The notes under the pieces are model-generated. The model was not told the DNA's origin. It saw only the letters and a list, made by a program, of their open reading frames with translations, and searched no databases. From Nematocida ausubeli (Eukaryota), in NCBI RefSeq assembly GCF_000738915.1, contig NW_026515640.1:62001-84012 (forward strand): a DNA stretch of 22,012 nt, in the 5' to 3' direction. Position 1 is the first letter of the stretch. Every line of letters begins with the position of its first letter. This document shows, piece after piece, positions 4,130 through 22,012 of this stretch. The translations under genes and the position numbers were made by a program.

Positions 4130-4375
4130 ATAGGTTATTTATAGGTTGTGGATAGATTGTTGGTATTATGTGGTTATTAGTTGTTAATATACCGTTAAAT
4201 ATGGTTTTTAGTGGGTAGATATACCGTTAAATATAGTTGAATATGGTTATTAGTTGTTAATATACGGTTAAATATGGTTATTAGTTGTCTATATACAGTT
4301 AAATACGGTTATTAGTTGGTAATATTCGGTTAAATATGGTTGAATGTGGTTATTAGTGGGTAATCTACCGTTGAA
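4130..4375. repeat. Degenerate tandem repeat, unit about 31 bp
   Basis: Repeated GTTAAATATGGTTATTAGTTG units. Confidence 0.8.
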
Positions 4376-5517
4376 TACTTTCGGGATTTGGGTAAATATA
4401 ACAACTCCTAGAGACATGTACAAGCATAATATAACCCGATATATTTAGAGTATCCCGAATATTCTTAATTTTCTTTCAATTTTAAACTATCCACAAATTA
4501 TATTTCTACAAAAACATATTGCAGACTTTTTATTCTGCACTCAGATAGAGATAATTATTCACTCCAAAGAATCCGTGTAAATTTAAGTGCAAATTGACAG
4601 GAGTAAACAGAATATAAGTATACAATGGAATTAGTCTGAGAATAATTGGTAGCCCACACAATATATATCTGGGTTATATTCAGTATAATAATCCGAGTGA
4701 AGACAAGATTCTTCGTATTTTCACATGTCACTAGTAAGAAATATATTGAACATGAATAAAAAGACAAAGTATATTCACCAAGTGATAAGAATAAAATATA
4801 CTTGATAACTACCTCTATCTACTACCCAGTTAATTTATACTAATTCTTCTCTGAATATTACTTCTCTTTTGTACCGTCAGTCTTTTAGTTTTTTGTAAAG
4901 AATTTAACACGAATTCACTCAGAAGCACAAAGGCACTAAATAGTACGGGAAAATAAACAGTCAATAAAAATACGTTAATATAAGCCAAGAATATCCTAAG
5001 ACTAATAGGATAAGACATGATAATAGTGATAAATATTCTGCCTAAGATGGAAATATGACAAGATAATACTGATAAATAGAATTTACCTCTGTACTATGCA
5101 AAGAATTTTCTGCAAATTCCCCAAGAGACAAGAATTTAGTTAATAGTTAAGCAAGAATAATTCAATAGATATATTTTCATTAAAAAATAGTGATAAATAC
5201 AACAGGAAAATACTCTTATTATAAAGATACCCATATATACCCAATATATACCTGTATATACCCAATATAACCCGAGTTTCCTAGTAGTAATATATCCCTA
5301 TATCCCTATATCCCCAATATAACCAGAATTACAAAAAACAAATTGATTTGTCCGTTATAAGATACTTCAATCATACAGTGTACTTCTTGTGGTGTTTCTA
5401 TTAAATAGTCATTCATTTGATTGGTGTAACATGAGATAGTATTTTCCTGAAGGAAATACTTATTGGTTTACTGTGTTACGTTTACAAAGTGACACACTGT
5501 AGATCATTTCAGACGAT

Positions 5518-11016: not shown

Positions 11017-11174
11017 TGTTTCCAGTCTCTCTACTACTACTAGTAATAATAATTCTCTCTAGTAGTAATAATTTTAAATAATTATTTGTTTTCAGTCTCT
11101 CTCTACTACTAGTAATCTACTAGTATTAATAATTCTCTATAGTAGTAATATTTTTATTTTTCTTGTCGACAACA
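11017..11174 (+). repeat. Degenerate, internally duplicated solo-LTR-like relic
   Basis: Starts TGTTTCCAGT (LTR sense start TGTTGCCAGT), contains TAGTAGTAATAATTTTAAATAA, and ends TTTTCTTGTCGACAACA, identical over 17 nt to the reverse complement of 19831-19847. Confidence 0.55.
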
Positions 11175-11434
11175 AAATTATATCTAGTCACCTTCTAGTA
11201 CCAAGAATATTTTGGAGAATTAAAAGTAGAGATAGAACCTCTTTTGGTCTTGGAATAAAAGTGGAATATATTTATCATTATGATATACTGTCTAGTATGC
11301 GGTCTTGATGGTGCCTTCTAAATTATCTCTTGGTGTAGTATACTCTATTTATTATTTTAATTGTGTGCACTAACGGGGGAAGGGTATATTTGTAATTTAG
11401 GCTGTATTTAGTCAGTTCTGGTTATATCCTTGTA

Positions 11435-14721: not shown

Positions 14722-15306
14722 ATGAAGAAACAGAAAACAAGCATACGTACATTTCTCATTATTTTCGCATACATTGGGATGAGTGTCTTACTGTATACGT
14801 ATATCCCAAATTATAGAATACATTTCATTACAAGAAATGAGTTCAGCACACGGAATACTCGACCAATTATTTTGTACTCTCAGAGAGACCTTTCAAAGAT
14901 ATACGAAAAGTGCACTTGCTGGATTAATTGCACGTGTATTTCTGGCTCAGTGGATTATTTGCTTAAATCATCAGATATTCTACTGCCAGATGTAGATGTA
15001 TTAATGCACTCTCCATTTGACATCTCCTTAATACTACAGCACAAAATAACAAAAACACCAGTTATTTTACAGAAAGATCATATATACGCATATACATCGC
15101 ATAAATTCATCGATTACATAAAGATGTTCAGATATTTCTTTGAAGGAATATCCTATTTTGCACTCTCTGAGATGCAGAAGCATTGCAACATCAAGATAAT
15201 TACATATTTATACATAATTATGTGTGTACATATGGTAGTAGCAAAGTATAACAGCAGAAGGCGCAGTAGAAAGGCAGTATGCATGGAAGAACTGCAGGCA
15301 CTATGA
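14722..15306 (+). CDS. Hypothetical membrane-anchored protein
   Basis: 194-aa ORF with a basic N-terminus followed by a hydrophobic segment, and a second hydrophobic segment before a basic C-tail. Confidence 0.65.
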   Translation: MKKQKTSIRTFLIIFAYIGMSVLLYTYIPNYRIHFITRNEFSTRNTRPIILYSQRDLSKIYEKCTCWINCTCISGSVDYLLKSSDILLPDVDVLMHSPFDISLILQHKITKTPVILQKDHIYAYTSHKFIDYIKMFRYFFEGISYFALSEMQKHCNIKIITYLYIIMCVHMVVAKYNSRRRSRKAVCMEELQAL

Positions 15307-15319
15307 GGTTTCTGGGATT

Positions 15320-15660
15320 TAGGGTTATATTGGGTTATATCTAGTCGGGTTATATTTTAGTTATATCGGGTTATATTCTAGTTATATTCTAGTATATTTT
15401 GGTTATATTCTTGTTATATTTAGTTATATTTTAGTATATTTAGTTATATTCAGTATATTATTTTGGTTATATTCTTGTTATATTTAGTATATTCTAGTAT
15501 ATTCTAGTTATATTCTAGTAGATTCTTGTTATATTTAGTTATATTCTCGGGTTCTGGTTATATTTAGTTATATTCTAGTATATTTTAGTTATATTTAGTA
15601 TATTTTGGTTATATTCTAGTATATTTAGTATATTTTGGTTATATCCTGGTATGTTCTGGC
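15320..15660. repeat. GTTATATT/TAGTATATT minisatellite
   Basis: Dense 9-12 nt degenerate units directly after the stop codon. Confidence 0.85.
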
Positions 15661-15846
15661 TACATTTAGAAAAGTGAATTATTCATGAAGATGCATATGA
15701 AGGATATTCATGCAGGAATAGTAGAATTATAGTAGAATTATGACAGAATTAAATAGTTACTCTTTTAGGCTGGTTGACTTTATAATAATATTCTAATTTT
15801 ACTCTATATTTGTTCACAGTTATTTACAGTCTATTTTAATATTATT

Positions 15847-15918
15847 TGTTGCCAACTAAGAAAACTAAAGATAAAAATTTATTTAAAATTACTACTATAT
15901 ATAGAGCCACTGGCAACA
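15847..15918 (-). repeat. 3' LTR (72 bp)
   Basis: TGTTGCCA...TGGCAACA 8-bp terminal inverted repeat; identical to 19754-19825. Confidence 0.96.
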
Positions 15919-15927
15919 TCCCCCCCT
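15919..15927 (-). other. Polypurine tract
   Basis: AGGGGGGGA directly before the 3' LTR on the minus strand. Confidence 0.88.
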
Positions 15928-16071
15928 AGAATTTTCAATACTTTTTTCACCTTACTGTGGGGGCCTCCTTGCTCTTTTTGTCTTCCTACTTCCTCTGACT
16001 GCTTGTTTCTTCCACTCTTTCTGTCTGTCCGCTCTCTCTCTGCTTTCGTTCTAAATAAATTAAAAATTTCT

Positions 16072-16788
16072 TCACTTGACTACTTCTGTGCAATTCTTTG
16101 CTATGTGACCTTCCTTCTCGCACTTAAAGCACTTTATGCTTTTCCCGCTACCTCGACTGTCTCTTTTGCCCTGCGTTGTTTTATCTCTTTTGGTCTCCCT
16201 GTCCATCCTGATAACCTCCTGTTTGAACTCCTCCATGTCTCGTTTCAACAACTCGTCCTTCATCATCAATCTCCTCATCTTCATGTTCGACCATCCTCGG
16301 CACATACACTTCTTGATTTCTTTCTGACTTATTCCTCGCTTGTTTCCTACTTTTTCCACACGCTCCAACCAATCTTTCATCGACTCTCCTACGTCTTGTA
16401 GTAACTCTGGCATTTCCTTCTGCTCTGCACTCATAAAGTTCTTCACAACTTCTTCCTTAAACTCGACCCATGTCTGTGGTGGCTTCTTCTCACCGAACTT
16501 GTTTCCCCACCAAATCCATATCTCTTTCTCCATTGTGTCTCTTGGGTTTTTCATCACCTCGTCTCCCTTGCCTTTTCGGTCCACGTCCTTTATGTCCAGC
16601 TGCAGTGTCTCTCGTGTTATCCACTTTCGACTCACCTCTTCCTTTGCTATCTGTACTGTGTAACTCAGCTTTTGTTGATCTGTGTTTCCTTCCTCTGTTA
16701 CGTCGTCCTTTGGTCTTCTACCTGTCATGTTTTTCCCTCTTGCAATTTTCTTTTTATACTTGTCTTTTCCCGGCATCTTCTCTTTCAT
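16072..16788 (-). CDS. gag: Gag-like protein (capsid-like region plus CCHC zinc knuckle)
   Basis: WW...TWVEFKEEVVKNF and LLQDVGESMKDWLERV match retrotransposon gag/MHR-like patterns. CFKCEKEGHIAKNC is C-x2-C-x4-H-x4-C. The ATG overlaps the pol TGA (ATGA, 16788-16785). Confidence 0.88.
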   Translation of the reverse strand: MKEKMPGKDKYKKKIARGKNMTGRRPKDDVTEEGNTDQQKLSYTVQIAKEEVSRKWITRETLQLDIKDVDRKGKGDEVMKNPRDTMEKEIWIWWGNKFGEKKPPQTWVEFKEEVVKNFMSAEQKEMPELLQDVGESMKDWLERVEKVGNKRGISQKEIKKCMCRGWSNMKMRRLMMKDELLKRDMEEFKQEVIRMDRETKRDKTTQGKRDSRGSGKSIKCFKCEKEGHIAKNCTEVVK

Positions 16789-19525
16789 ATCACCTTTCTT
16801 TTGATCCTCCTATGACTGATCTTACTCTTCTTGCCTGTGTCTGCTTCTGTCACCAAGTATGTTCCTTCCTCTGTCACTCTGTCTACCTTTCCCTCCTTTG
16901 GAAATCTGTCTTGTTTCTTGTTCTCTGGCTTCTTCCTAAACCACACTGTCTCGCCCTCCTTTGCCTTTGCCTCATCCTTTTCCTCTTGAAATCGCTTCCT
17001 TGCGTACTCCCCCTTTGCTGAGTTTTTCTCTCTCAAAATGTCCATTCGAATGTCTCTGTCTGCCCGTCCTTCCTCTGCGTCCTTCTGTCTGTGTGTATAC
17101 CCGCCATTGCCTGCGTTTTCCCCCTTAGTATACTGTGCCTGCGCGACCCTCCCTGGTGCGTCTTTTTGTCTGTTCTCATACCCGCCATTGCCTGCGTTTT
17201 CTCCCCTAGTATGCTGTGCCTGCGCGACCCTCCCTGGTGCGTCTTGTTGTCTGTGTGTATACCCGCCATTGCCTGCGTTTTCTCCCCTAGTATACTGTGC
17301 CTGCGCGACCCTCCCTGGTGCGTCTTGTTGTCCTTGTGCTATCTCCCATGCCTCGTTTGGCTTCATCCCTATCTCGTCGTGTCTTCGACCGTTTATTGCG
17401 TTCTCTATCCGCTGCACTCTGTCCTTTAGCTCTCCGTCTGTCCCTATCTTTCTGTATATCTCCCATACTGACTTTATGACTCTCTCCACTCTCCTCAGTG
17501 TTGCATGTACCTCTATTGATCCTCTGTAGTTCTCTATCCCTGTTTTCTCCAAAAACCTCATCCACTTGTCTGCTACGTACTCTTTTGCTGTATCTGTCAC
17601 CAGCTTCTCTGGCTTCCCTCTTGTCTGTATCCACTCCTCCATTACTGCTATCATGTCTGCTGCTCCTCTGCCCTTCTTTGCTCTCACCATCACAATCCGC
17701 GTGAAATAATCCAGTACGCACACTAAGTTGTGTTCCTCTACCGGCCCCATCACGTCCATGCCAACCATTTCCAAAGCCTTCCCGGTTTCAATGAATTTCC
17801 CTTTTGATATGCTTCTCTTCTGATTGTTTTTCTGGCATTTTTCGCAGCTCTTCACCTTCTCCAAAAGGTCTGTCTTCAGTCCTACCCACGTGCTTTCCTG
17901 GTCTGTCTCTATCCAGTCCCTCATCTTCTCCATGCCCCCATGGCCTGTCTCTTCGTGTGCTCTGTTCATTATGTCTGTCTTCATTCTTGTCTTTATTAGT
18001 CTTCTGTCTAGCCCGTCGGCTCCCTCGATCCACGGTGTCCCGTTCTTCCATTGAATTCTCACCCAATACTTGCTCTTACTTGATATCCCGTACTCTGTCT
18101 CTCGCTCTGTTGTCTTCTCTACGTCCATCTGCTCTCTTCTGGATAGTGCGTCTACTGCTGTCATCTCGCTTCCTTTTCTGTACTTCACCACCATGTTAAA
18201 ACCATCTATTCTGTGCATCCACCTCTGTATTCTCTCACTCCCGAACTCCATTTTTCGGTTCCAGCACTCCAATGCTCGGTGATCCACAATCACTGTAAAC
18301 TTTCGTCCCCGCAAATAATGCTCATACTTCTCTATTCCCAGCACCATTGCATACAACTCTCTTTCTGTGATTCCATAGTTTCTCTCTGCGCTCTTGAACT
18401 TGTACGACCCAAATGCTATGATTCTCTCATTCCCCTTTTCGTCTATCTGTGATAATATCCGCCCTGCGGCCACCCCGCTTGCGTCCGTTGTAAGTACTAT
18501 CTCTCGTCCGTCCACCCATGTGTCCAACTTTGCTGTTGCAAACTCCTCCTTTAGTCTCTCTACTGTCTCCTTGTCTTGCTGTCTCATCTCAAATTTGCTG
18601 CCCTCCTTCATCTTGTCATATAGCTCGGCTGTTTTATTGGCAAAATCTTTTATATACCGGCTATAGTGATTTATGAATCCTAGGAATCGTCTCAGTTCCT
18701 CTTTTGTCTCTGGCATTGCCCATCTTCGCATTTCCTCTACCTTGTCTTCTTTTGGCCTACCTGTCTCTCCGTTGATTATGTGTCCTAATGCCAGTACCTC
18801 TTGTCTTCTATACTGCATTTTCACCTCCTTCACTCTTAAGTCTGCTTTGTCCAGTCTTCTCATAACTCTGTCCAGATTTTCATCGTGCTCCTTCTCCGTG
18901 TTGCCGTATACTATGATGTCGTCTAAGTACACCTCGCATCCGTTTCCGATCACTCCGTCTAGCTCCTTGTCCATGATTCTCTGAAATATCGCTGGTGAGT
19001 TCTTGTACCCCATCACCAACCTTTTGCACTGGTATAACCTGTTCTTCAACTTGAATGCTGTTTTCTCTCTGCTGTCTTTGTGTAACCTTATCTGGAAGTA
19101 TCCATCCTTTAGATCTAATACTGTGAACCATTTCTTCTGCCCTACCTTCACGAGTATTCCCTCAATCTCTGGCAACGAGTATTTGTCATCCTCCACTATT
19201 GTATTTAGTTTTCTTAGGTTTTGGCACAGCCGCAGTGAACCATCCGGTTTCTCCACTATTTTCACTGGGTTGCACCACCTTGACCTTGATAACTCAATCA
19301 CTCCTTCCCTAAGCAACTTGTTTGTCATTTCGTCTATTTTTTTTTGTCCCACTCCATTGGTAGTTTCCTTCCCCATGACTGGTTTATCCTCAACCCTGGC
19401 GGTGTTTCTATCTGCACCTCTTCGCCTTGGTATCCCTGTGATGGTTCCATTGAGAACACTCTCTTCCACTTCTTGACTAACTCTTCTTGCTTCATGCCTT
19501 CTGCAAAAACTTCTTTGTCTTTCAT
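16785..19525 (-). CDS. pol: Pol (RT-RNase H-integrase) without protease; N-terminus split by a frameshift at A9 (19345-19337)
   Basis: RT: LDLKDGYFQI, GYKNSPAIFQ, YLDDII. RNase H: TDAS, ERELYA, VDHRAL, DALSR. Integrase: H-x4-H...C-x2-C and D, D-35-E (GMDV, VTDT, RVER). The upstream 63-aa ORF 19525-19334 supplies a typical RT N-terminus. Confidence 0.92.
17076..17332. repeat. In-frame 81-bp tandem repeat, about 3.2 copies, in the integrase linker
   Basis: CCCGCCATTG at 17100, 17181 and 17262; encodes QQDAPGRVAQAQYTRGENAGNGGYTHR units. Confidence 0.95.
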
Positions 19526-19738
19526 CTGTCTTTAATCTTGAATCACTCTCTCCTCCTCTTTTTGATCTTTAGTCCCAGATTTGAGAGTACTCAGTCCGAT
19601 ACTATCGGCAATCTTATACTTCCTCCTTTCCCCTCTCCTCTGTACAAGCGGCAATAATATAATGAGTCTGTTATTGATCTAGCTATTCTTATAGCTTTTC
19701 TACGTCAACTTGACCCGAGCTTTGCGCTACTCTTTAAA

Positions 19739-19753
19739 CCTGTCAGGACGCCA
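19739..19753 (-). other. tRNA primer-binding site
   Basis: TGGCGTCCTGACAGG abuts the 5' LTR and is complementary to a tRNA 3' end ...GGACG-CCA. tRNA identity not established. Confidence 0.8.
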
Positions 19754-19825
19754 TGTTGCCAACTAAGAAAACTAAAGATAAAAATTTATTTAAAATTACT
19801 ACTATATATAGAGCCACTGGCAACA
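19754..19825 (-). repeat. 5' LTR (72 bp)
   Basis: Identical to 15847-15918. The sense strand carries a TATA-like CTATATATAG and AATAAA. Confidence 0.96.
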
Positions 19826-19830
19826 TTATT

Positions 19831-19890
19831 TGTTGTCGACAAGAAAACTGAAAATAAATTTATTTGAAATTACTAGTATATAGACTAACA
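19831..19890 (-). repeat. Diverged solo-LTR-like copy (60 bp) abutting the TSD
   Basis: TGTTGTCGACAAGAAAACTGAAAATAAATTTATTTGAAATTACTAGTATATAGACTAACA aligns end to end with the LTR and keeps TGTT...AACA termini. Confidence 0.75.
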
Positions 19891-20425: not shown

Positions 20426-22012
20426 ATGAAGTCATCACTCTCATCAGATTCAGTTAAATTTCTGAGAGTTTTTTCAAAGAACCATTCAGTTCCAGAAAAA
20501 AGACGCACAAGATCAAAAGAAAAAGAAGAAGCAAAGTGCCTTTCAGAATTATCCAAATACTTAAAGGAACTATCACATCTAAGCCAAAAAGTACAAAGAA
20601 GAAGTATTTTATTACAAAGTGGTGCAAGCCAAATAGAATACATTTCATCATCAAAGGACCCAAAGATGCTCAGAAAAATCCTCAAACTAAAACTAACCCT
20701 TCTAACAGAAAGAAAAGACAGACTCCTTCAAGAAATATCAGATGTCTTCAGATATTTATCCAGCCAGAAAGTCCTTCTAGAAGGATCTAGTAGCAGTGGC
20801 AGCAGTATTTACGATGTAAGCAGTCTATTAGGAAGCAGTTCAAGCGCATTAGGAAGCAGTTCAAGCACTATTGAAAGAACTTTGTCTTCATCAAATTCAT
20901 CAAATTCTTCCAATTCATCAAGTTCTAGCCAATCTAGCCACTCATCTTCCAATTCATCAAGATCAAGACAATCTAGCCACTCATCTTCCTCTCCATTATC
21001 ACTCTCTTCACTCTTGCACTTGCAAAGTTCTCTTAACCATAAAGTACTTTTGCACTATTCAAGGTACAATAGTACTCTCTCTGAGATAGAAATATTGATC
21101 GAAGACTCATCAATCAGCAAGGCAGATAGGAAGATAATCTATTCTGTTTTATTTCCATCGTACTCTAATGATAGTCTTAGTATTCTTACAAAGGGTCTTA
21201 GGTCTATTTTCGGGTCACGTGTCTGCTCTGCCTCAAATTTCTGTAAGGAAATGATCCGTAAGAGTAGTTCATCAGAGATATATCTCTCTAATATGTCAGA
21301 TAGATTCGAGATATTTTCTTGTTATCTTTACTTCTTACGGCATAATTCACTCCTATCTTCCAGTTATATATTCGGGGTAGCAAGCACTTTATGCTATTCC
21401 TTATACAGTACCACACAATTACCACTGCCTACAGTACTAAGTATATTGCTAGTAAGTGGATTAGGAATAGTTTTATTCGGATGGTCATCATTTGCAGTGA
21501 TAAATGTATTCTTCAGGTGGACACTAGGACAAAGTATCATAAGTGATGGGTCTAGCCTTTCTAGTAGTAGTGGGTCTAGCTTATCAGATTCTAGTCTGTC
21601 TAGTAGTAGTAGATTGTCTAGTAGTTCCAGTAGTCTGTCTAGTAGTAACAGTGGAAGTAGTAGTAAATTATCTAGTAGTAATGGAAGTAGTTCTAGTAGT
21701 AGTCTGTCTAGTAGTAGTAGTAACAAATTATCTAGTTCTAATAGTAACAAGCCATCTAGTAGTCTATCTAGTAGTAGTAGATTGTCTAGTAGTAACAAAT
21801 TATCTAGTAGTCTATCTAGTAGTCTGTCTAGTATCCTGTCTAGTAGTTCTAGTAGTAGTAGTAACAGAAATAGTTTATTCAGCAGCAGTAGTAAACCATC
21901 TAGTAGTAGTTCTAGCAATATTTTGTCTAGTAGTCTACCTAGTAGTCTATCTAGTAGTAGTAGTAAACCATCTAGTTCTAGCAGTAGTAAACCATCTAGT
22001 TCTAGCAGTAGT
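20426..22012 (+). CDS. Serine-rich hypothetical membrane protein, 3'-truncated by the window (at least 529 aa; absent from the ORF track)
   Basis: Manual translation from the ATG at 20426 (MKSSLSSDSVKFLRVF...) has no stop before the window end. It has a coiled-coil-like N-terminus, a Ser tract, a hydrophobic block near 21360-21510, then poly-Ser repeats. Confidence 0.8.
   Translation, partial: MKSSLSSDSVKFLRVFSKNHSVPEKRRTRSKEKEEAKCLSELSKYLKELSHLSQKVQRRSILLQSGASQIEYISSSKDPKMLRKILKLKLTLLTERKDRLLQEISDVFRYLSSQKVLLEGSSSSGSSIYDVSSLLGSSSSALGSSSSTIERTLSSSNSSNSSNSSSSSQSSHSSSNSSRSRQSSHSSSSPLSLSSLLHLQSSLNHKVLLHYSRYNSTLSEIEILIEDSSISKADRKIIYSVLFPSYSNDSLSILTKGLRSIFGSRVCSASNFCKEMIRKSSSSEIYLSNMSDRFEIFSCYLYFLRHNSLLSSSYIFGVASTLCYSLYSTTQLPLPTVLSILLVSGLGIVLFGWSSFAVINVFFRWTLGQSIISDGSSLSSSSGSSLSDSSLSSSSRLSSSSSSLSSSNSGSSSKLSSSNGSSSSSSLSSSSSNKLSSSNSNKPSSSLSSSSRLSSSNKLSSSLSSSLSSILSSSSSSSSNRNSLFSSSSKPSSSSSSNILSSSLPSSLSSSSSKPSSSSSSKPSSSSSS

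What the first reader, a model, noticed from the sequence alone, without database searches (positions are those of the whole stretch)
15847..19825. LTR retroelement with inverted gene order: pol before gag
Seen: on the minus strand the order is 5'LTR, PBS, ~210-nt leader, RT-RNaseH-IN, gag-like ORF (capsid-like motifs plus CCHC knuckle), PPT, 3'LTR. Established: Ty3/Gypsy, Ty1/Copia, Bel/Pao elements and retroviruses place gag 5' of pol. Inference: identical LTRs, an intact TSD and correctly placed PBS and PPT suggest the element transposed recently in this layout, rather than being scrambled after insertion. A Gag-Pol fusion is impossible here, so Pol packaging and Gag excess need another mechanism. 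I do not recall this architecture being described, but could not search.
Basis: partly seen in the sequence, partly recalled or inferred. Interest (0 to 1): 0.92.

Follow-up and report, generated by a model that had tools for sequence, protein, structure and literature searches.

The report
Retrotransposon with pol before gag
A jumping gene in a nematode-infecting microsporidian carries its enzyme gene in front of its coat gene and has no protease, the reverse of the textbook order; this copy's enzyme gene is broken, but the layout likely marks a small lineage that would have to build its particles without the usual coat-enzyme fusion.

Summary
Window 15847-19825 (minus strand) is a Ty3/gypsy-type element of Nematocida ausubeli. 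Its order is: 72-bp LTR, PBS-like site, RT-RNaseH-integrase, a 238-aa capsid-plus-zinc-knuckle gag, PPT, identical LTR, inside a 5-bp target duplication. The gag ATG overlaps the pol stop (ATGA).

Misassembly is unlikely: two other assemblies give the same flank-[gag]-pol tag order and a third holds the parts on one contig. An 89%-identical gag on another contig also has integrase-tail DNA directly upstream. A second Nematocida species has a Pol that starts at its own Met at the RT N-terminus, four distant gag relatives are stand-alone ORFs, and no gag-first sibling closer than about 40% was found. Gag-fused relatives are single-ORF gag-(PR)-pol, so the layout is derived.

No DNA of a distant family member was seen, so lineage-wide order is inferred. 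How Gag is expressed is untested. Ten literature searches found no such layout.

The parts
19826..19830 (-). target-site duplication, 5' copy (AATAA)
19754..19825 (-). 5' LTR, 72 bp, TG...CA, 8-bp terminal inverted repeat; TATA-like word at LTR position 16 and AATAAA at position 36
19736..19753 (-). primer-binding-site-like sequence (starts TGG, abuts the LTR); 18-nt length nominal, priming tRNA not identified
   Evidence: same position and similar start in relative L108
19743..19754 (-). three-codon mini-ORF (Met-Ala-Ser-stop) at the LTR/PBS junction, where the relative L108 reads on into gag; inferred relic of the old 5' gag start
19334..19525 (-). pol N-terminal segment, 63 codons and a stop; homologous to the RT N-terminus
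   Evidence: phmmer E about 1e-5 to the pre-RT region of relatives; 65% identical over 49 aa to P0209
19337..19345 (-). A9 run at which the pol frame breaks
16785..19376 (-). pol main frame: RT - RNase H - integrase with a C-terminal tail shared with relatives; no protease; its first residues, ahead of the A run, belong to the wrong frame
17076..17332 (-). three in-frame repeats at 81-bp spacing inside the integrase tail; two in P0002, none in P0003
16785..16788 (-). ATGA overlap of the pol stop and the gag start
16072..16788 (-). gag, 238 aa: poorly predicted N-terminus, capsid (about 56-213), CCHC knuckle (220-233)
15919..15927 (-). polypurine tract abutting the 3' LTR
   Evidence: near-identical tract in L108
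15847..15918 (-). 3' LTR, identical to the 5' LTR
15842..15846 (-). target-site duplication, 3' copy (AATAA)

Best explanation
This is an integrated, frameshifted copy of a Ty3/gypsy-type LTR element with pol before gag and no protease, and it likely belongs to a Nematocida lineage that transposes in this layout. Shown: the order LTR-PBS-RT-RH-IN-gag-PPT-LTR, the target duplication, the capsid and knuckle, the absence of a protease, and gag copies at other places in other strains. Inferred: the 5' LTR drives a full-length RNA whose first long ORF gives one uncleaved RT-RNaseH-integrase protein. Gag is made as a finished capsid-nucleocapsid protein that needs no cutting. Pol would enter the particle by holding on to the RNA that encodes it, or by a non-covalent contact with Gag, instead of by fusion. 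The host has no splicing, so Gag most likely comes from a short second transcript starting near the end of integrase (my odds 50%); stop-restart at the ATGA overlap is the close rival (35%), supply from other elements the remainder (15%). Origin (inferred): from a single-ORF gag-(PR)-pol ancestor, through a tandem or gag-pol-gag stage that lost the 5' gag and protease.
For: Layout and termini. Gag identity: ESM feature hits to Retrotrans_gag and Ty3_capsid clusters at 0.94-0.95; an 8-sequence profile hits Arc capsid at E 1e-8; ranks 1-17 of the wide fold search are all Gag/Arc capsid domains (best Z 7.6, rmsd 3.6, 89 aligned); 21.5 bits against a profile of the N-terminal regions of 7 relatives, best of 30 shuffles -1.7. 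Same site in other assemblies: tags NEAUS05_2407 (pol) and _2409 (flank gene), NEAUS07_2365 and _2363, one tag free between; NEAUS06 pol and gag pieces on a 171,310-bp contig that also holds flank genes. Other places: ERTm2 gag is NERG_00217 while this locus is NERG_00530-00540; NEAUS03 gag (88.7%) and an RT piece are neighbours (_1651, _1652) on a 24,293-bp contig, the flank genes on a 43,674-bp contig. The 13-aa N-terminal extension of that gag matches the DNA of the integrase tail (6 of 6 residues in the gag frame, 4 of 5 in the next frame). P0209 of Nematocida sp. AWRm78/79 starts with Met within two residues of the window's pol start and runs on into RT. P0148, P0149, P0150 and P0155 (30-37% identical) are stand-alone ORFs of 189-223 aa. 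P0149 and the 57%-identical pol P0003 both list a 3,591-bp contig. No gag-fused pol above about 40% identity among the 120 listed of 347 hits. No splicing in Nematocida (PMC3514677, passages read).
Against: No DNA of any family member outside this window was seen; the order in P0003/P0149 cannot be read from protein records, 627 nt are left over on that contig and either order fits, and short contigs of collapsed elements can look permuted (L052 and L084). All four alleles at this site carry or imply the pol frameshift, NEAUS06 gag is in two pieces, and the NEAUS03 and AWRm78/79 copies are decayed: no intact copy is in hand. The Met of P0209 could be a chance start in a decayed copy. The 50 nt before the gag ATG are not host-like (T 14% against 24-54% in 13 host genes), which does not favour an internal promoter. 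With only the six closest gags the Arc hit falls to E 0.03; Foldseek gave no match under E 0.001; Z under 8 is middling for helical bundles and the N-terminal capsid lobe is barely tested.
Confidence: 0.7

Rival explanations
1. A rearranged, non-autonomous derivative confined to N. ausubeli: one shuffle put gag behind pol and removed the protease, and the product is copied in trans by ordinary gag-PR-pol elements of the same genome.
For: No intact copy seen; pol broken at the A9 run here and, by their annotated start, in three other assemblies. Canonical gag-PR-pol elements exist in Nematocida (P0021, P0024). No protease in the element.
Against: No gag-first sibling above about 40% identity. 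RT, RNase H and integrase motifs are kept against the 57% relative. The free-standing Pol start in a second species and four stand-alone gags at 30-37% identity point to an old split of gag from pol.
Confidence: 0.22
2. Same lineage, but Gag is made from the full-length RNA by ribosomes that stop at the pol stop and restart at the overlapping AUG; an unfused Pol does not spoil capsid assembly, so no Gag excess is needed. (A rival for the expression step only; its confidence is conditional on the best explanation.)
For: Exact ATGA overlap; no T-rich tract before the gag ATG; single-ORF relatives already make Gag and Pol from one frame. Stop-restart at AUGA is known from fungal victoriviruses (recalled, no call).
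Against: No stable structure in the 60-150 nt before the gag ATG (z -0.45 to -0.03). In the NEAUS03 copy a 1-nt difference upstream would shift the pol stop off the overlap (inferred). Restart after a long ORF is usually inefficient (general knowledge).
Confidence: 0.35
3. Assembly artefact: a collapsed gag-pol element was linearised or mis-joined into a pol-gag order.
For: It happens: 2 of 80 unrelated gypsy loci showed a knuckle only downstream of RT, and both are contigs with terminal direct repeats, that is circular assemblies. Reads could not be examined.
Against: Here both ends join non-element host DNA through one target duplication, and the pol stop overlaps the gag ATG with no PPT, LTR or PBS between. 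Other assemblies give the same neighbour order, and a diverged copy has the same junction.
Confidence: 0.03

Closest known systems
Microsporidian single-ORF Ty3/gypsy elements (Parisot et al. 2014, PMC4202319: passages and supplementary Table S1 read; example seen here: L108 = P0006)
   Same: RT-RH-IN order; nearest gag-fused relatives by RT tree; LTR of about 70 bp with TG...CA; similar PBS start and PPT; homologous capsid.
   Different: They are one polyprotein gag-(PR)-RT-RH-IN whose frame runs through the PBS. Here that frame stops after three codons, pol has its own start, and gag is a separate ORF behind integrase.
Saccharomyces Ty3 (Metaviridae)
   Same: Best solved match of the pol family profile (7q5b, E 1e-129; 4ol8, E 2e-110); Arc/Ty3-like capsid and one CCHC knuckle.
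   Different: Ty3 is gag then PR-RT-IN joined by a frameshift and cut by its protease (recalled); this element has the reverse order, no fusion and no protease.
Foamy viruses and hepadnaviruses (recalled, no call)
   Same: Pol is made apart from the capsid protein and is packaged through the RNA, not by fusion: the kind of mechanism proposed here.
   Different: Both keep the capsid gene 5' of pol; foamy Pol comes from a spliced RNA and has a protease; hepadnaviruses have no LTR or integrase.
LTR elements with an extra 3' ORF (env-like ORFs, recalled; knuckle ORFs in L086/L095; the unchecked gag-pol-gag note e1-7177856)
   Same: An ORF between integrase and the PPT.
   Different: They keep a 5' gag; here the 3' ORF is the only gag.

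Membership tests
Ty3/gypsy LTR retrotransposons (Metaviridae) | Two direct LTRs with TG...CA ends and a short target-site duplication | tested here: met
   72-bp identical LTRs, 5-bp duplication
Ty3/gypsy LTR retrotransposons (Metaviridae) | tRNA primer-binding site behind the 5' LTR | tested here: inconclusive
   TGG-starting site in the right place and like that of L108; no host tRNA set was available to match it
Ty3/gypsy LTR retrotransposons (Metaviridae) | Polypurine tract before the 3' LTR | tested here: met
   15919-15927
Ty3/gypsy LTR retrotransposons (Metaviridae) | RT-RNase H-integrase order and Ty3-type RT | tested here: met
   quick tree
Ty3/gypsy LTR retrotransposons (Metaviridae) | Gag with capsid fold and nucleocapsid knuckle | tested here: met
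   the C-terminal capsid lobe is the part best tested
Ty3/gypsy LTR retrotransposons (Metaviridae) | gag lies 5' of pol | tested here: not met
   gag is 3' of integrase; the leader has no gag or protease remnant (best -1.2 bits)
Ty3/gypsy LTR retrotransposons (Metaviridae) | Aspartic protease between gag and RT | tested here: not met
   profile from 29 seeds: best -3.5 bits in six frames, against 19.6-52.9 bits for 7 non-seed close relatives
Ty3/gypsy LTR retrotransposons (Metaviridae) | Forms particles and transposes through an RNA | not testable with these tools
   only inferred, from the target duplication and gag copies at other places
Microsporidian single-polyprotein Ty3/gypsy clades (PMC4202319) | One ORF for gag and pol | tested here: not met
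   two ORFs in different frames
Ty1/copia | Integrase before RT | tested here: not met

The most novel reading that the evidence does not exclude
An autonomous LTR-retrotransposon lineage, spread over several Nematocida species, that has reversed the gag-pol order, dropped the protease, and builds particles from a free capsid-nucleocapsid protein and one uncleaved RT-RNaseH-integrase that is packaged through its own RNA: a third way, besides frameshifting and splicing, to set the Gag:Pol ratio, in a host without a spliceosome.
Probability: 0.55. Interest if true: 0.88.

Novelty: new variant of a known kind. Interest (0 to 1): 0.78.

Why it matters
Gag-before-pol with a Gag-Pol fusion is the textbook way for LTR elements and retroviruses to set stoichiometry, package their enzymes and time maturation by proteolysis. 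A lineage that transposes as pol-gag without a protease would show that the order, the fusion and the cleavage are all dispensable, and would give a 4-kb natural system for asking how Pol enters a capsid and whether RT and integrase work uncleaved. Annotation tools that expect gag first would miss or mis-call such elements.

Tried and rejected
No whole genome was held and no reads could be examined, so copy number, the empty site and expression were not seen directly. No DNA of the family was found in viral contigs or prokaryote genome contigs; one search gave three loci, of which L108 is a canonical relative. The one metagenome scan used broad patterns, covered 3 of 64 parts, and returned only generic gypsy loci (38% identity or less).

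A programmed frameshift at the A9 run was considered because the run is followed at once by a stop. It was set aside: no stable structure follows within 60-90 nt (z -1.0 to +0.6; -2.2 only with a 110-nt window), and P0209 is continuous there. It is not excluded, since P0003 also starts just past this point.

A protease relic in the leader was tested and not found. Splicing was rejected: no GTAAGT word on the sense strand, one GTGAGT inside gag, and the host lacks splicing. The single-sequence fold was unusable (pLDDT 43); Foldseek on the better model gave Arc and PNMA2 capsids as the top five rows but none under E 0.001, and nothing clear in the viral library. The sigma-70 scan does not apply to a eukaryote and was ignored. 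The careful tree did not finish; only the quick tree is quoted. P0147 (repeat) and the knuckle-only hits were dropped as uninformative. Five short motifs of this element are absent from the Parisot supplement (one of its two files could not be searched; the sequence file is listed as An. algerae consensus sequences).
Full report
1. What is in the sequence. The window is Nematocida ausubeli: neighbour proteins and the element's proteins fall in clusters named for that species. On the minus strand, 19825-19754 and 15918-15847 are identical 72-bp repeats with TG...CA ends and an 8-bp terminal inverted repeat, both flanked by AATAA. A TGG-starting site abuts the 5' LTR and a purine tract abuts the 3' LTR. 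Between them lie RT, RNase H, the integrase zinc domain and core, and then a 238-aa ORF whose ATG overlaps the pol stop as ATGA and which ends just after a CCHC knuckle, 153 nt before the 3' LTR.

2. Two things to add. First, pol is broken. After a three-codon mini-ORF at the LTR/PBS junction there is no ATG until 19525. The 63 codons from there match the pre-RT region of relatives (E about 1e-5) and are 65% identical over 49 aa to P0209, but stop right after an A9 run (19337-19345); the rest of pol is in another frame. Three other assemblies annotate pol from the same out-of-frame ATG at 19376 (P0139 on two contigs, P0002), so the break is probably real and shared. P0209 is continuous there, so I read it as a mutation. 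Second, there is no protease: a profile built from 29 seed sequences scores at best -3.5 bits in six frames of the element, against 19.6-52.9 bits for seven non-seed close relatives.

3. The downstream ORF is a gag. ESM features place it with Retrotrans_gag and Ty3_capsid clusters (0.94-0.95, but only 139-149 shared features). A profile of eight homologues hits Arc capsid at E 1e-8; with the six closest only, E 0.03. P0155, a family member, passes Pfam's Retrotrans_gag cut-off (30.4 bits). The model made from the alignment (pLDDT 67, pTM 0.48) has Gag or Arc capsid domains at ranks 1-17 among 48,161 chains (best Z 7.6, rmsd 3.6, 89 aligned), mostly over residues 122-210; Foldseek found nothing under E 0.001. 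The ORF scores 21.5 bits against a profile of the N-terminal regions of seven gag-PR-pol relatives, against -1.7 for the best of 30 shuffles. Each line is moderate; together they agree.

4. Not an artefact, and not a single copy. NEAUS05 and NEAUS07 have pol and the orthologue of the flank gene (14722-15306) two tags apart, with one tag free between; the identical gag is on three contigs, its tags hidden. NEAUS06 has pol, two gag pieces and flank genes on a 171,310-bp contig. In ERTm2 this locus is NERG_00530-00540 but the only gag in the cluster is NERG_00217 (97.9%). In NEAUS03 the gag (88.7%) and an RT piece (95%) are neighbours on a different contig from the flank genes. The 13 extra N-terminal residues of that gag match the window's DNA just upstream of gag, which encodes the integrase tail: six residues in the gag frame and four of five in the adjacent frame. 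So a diverged copy elsewhere has the same integrase-gag junction. That other strains lack the element at this site is inferred from annotation only. As a control, of 80 unrelated gypsy loci 45 had a knuckle only upstream of RT, 2 on both sides, 2 only downstream and 31 none; the 2 downstream-only contigs have terminal direct repeats and are circular assemblies. The window differs: host flanks, one target duplication, and no LTR between pol and gag.

5. Beyond the species. The closest pol (P0003, 57%) has neither gag nor protease in its ORF and groups with the window's pol at 100% SH-aLRT in a quick tree of 49 rows chosen from the hits. P0209 of Nematocida sp. AWRm78/79 (68%) begins with Met two residues from the window's pol start, though that copy is truncated after RT. 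A full HMMER search with gag gave 55 hits; the four closest non-self capsid matches (P0148, P0149, P0150, P0155; 30-37%) are stand-alone ORFs of 189-223 aa, three ending at the knuckle, and N. parisii holds a 63-84 aa fragment. P0149 and P0003 both list a contig of 3,591 bp: probably one element with two ORFs, order unseen. Among the 120 listed of 347 pol hits of 474-1511 aa, no gag-fused protein exceeds about 40% identity.

6. Direction of change. Gag-fused relatives are single ORFs. L108 is a complete example: 67-bp LTRs, an ORF that starts in the LTR and reads Asn-Met-Ala through the PBS into gag-PR-RT-RH-IN, and a near-identical PPT. Ten of 12 full-length relatives have Met/Leu-Ala-Pro/Ser within their first 11 residues. 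The window reads Asn-Met-Ala-Ser-stop at the same place. Five of those relatives (P0010, P0012, P0014, P0016, P0017) also show no protease. I infer that the 5' gag and protease were lost and a gag of the clade's own type came to lie 3' of integrase.

7. How it would work. Shown: anatomy and integration marks. Inferred: transcription from the 5' LTR (TATA-like word at position 16, AATAAA at 36), tRNA priming at the PBS, plus-strand priming at the PPT, integration by the element's integrase. With no protease, Pol would act as one RT-RH-IN chain and Gag as a finished capsid-nucleocapsid protein. Pol cannot ride in on Gag, so it would be packaged by binding its own RNA or Gag; foamy viruses and hepadnaviruses do the former (recalled). 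An unfused Pol would also not spoil the lattice, which relaxes the need for Gag excess. Nematocida has no splicing and makes mostly discrete transcripts with short UTRs (PMC3514677, passages), leaving an internal transcript (50%), stop-restart at ATGA (35%) or supply in trans (15%). The sequence gives no positive sign of an internal promoter (T 14% in the 50 nt before gag, 24-54% in 13 host genes) and no structure before the overlap.

8. Literature. Ten searches (listings read) found no pol-before-gag LTR element; five phrasings of the order gave 0 papers with 'retrotransposon', and the one 'pol-gag' hit means a fusion protein (passage read). PMC4202319 (passages, supplement parts 1, 51, 52) describes microsporidian Ty3/gypsy elements as one polyprotein, counts 6 LTR families in Nematocida sp., and lists at most one ORF per An. 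algerae consensus. PMC10393165 has no occurrence of 'transpos', 'retro' or 'LTR' in its main text; PMC7313128 none of 'gag', 'Ty3' or 'Nematocida'. Subscription journals, Repbase and GyDB were not searchable, and unseen supplements (for example of PMC3514677) may list this family.

9. Verdict. Real, and derived from microsporidian Ty3/gypsy elements, but failing two defining features (gag first, protease), so it works like a Ty3/gypsy element without being a regular member. Lineage-wide order and autonomy are likely but rest on protein records. New variant of a known kind; interest 0.78.

Noticed in passing
window 19831-19890 (minus strand): A 60-bp TG...CA-bounded sequence like the element's LTR ends exactly at the target duplication, so the element sits 5 bp from an older LTR-like remnant; the remnant's own flanks do not match.
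   Followed up: partly
window 11059-11176 (plus strand): Two further LTR-core-like stretches; one shares 28 nt at 93% with the remnant at 19829-19856. Possibly decayed solo LTRs of a related family.
   Followed up: partly
proteins P0010, P0012, P0014, P0016, P0017: Single-ORF gag-RT-RH-IN relatives with no detectable protease: protease loss may be wider in microsporidian-type gypsy elements, and how they free Gag is unexplained.
   Followed up: partly
protein P0003: The 57% relative is annotated from a Met just past the point where the window's pol breaks; either a gene-caller choice or a second break at the same place.
   Followed up: no
L086:5428-6891 and L095:4121-5470: Gypsy elements with a normal gag and an extra 450-488-codon ORF with two CCHC knuckles directly behind pol; no capsid family hit.
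   Followed up: partly
L052 and L084: Contigs with terminal direct repeats that show a false pol-then-gag order: a trap for anyone screening for this layout.
   Followed up: yes
L108: A complete microsporidian-type gypsy element filed in a bacterial MAG, evidently a contaminant contig.
   Followed up: partly
window 17076-17332: In-frame 27-aa repeats in the integrase tail vary in number between strains (3 or 2) and are absent from P0003.
   Followed up: partly
window 20426-22012 (plus strand): A very serine-rich open frame of over 529 codons runs off the window.
   Followed up: no
window intergenic stretches, e.g. 15336-15655, 4146-4377, 1765-2264: Degenerate short tandem repeats fill several intergenic regions.
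   Followed up: no
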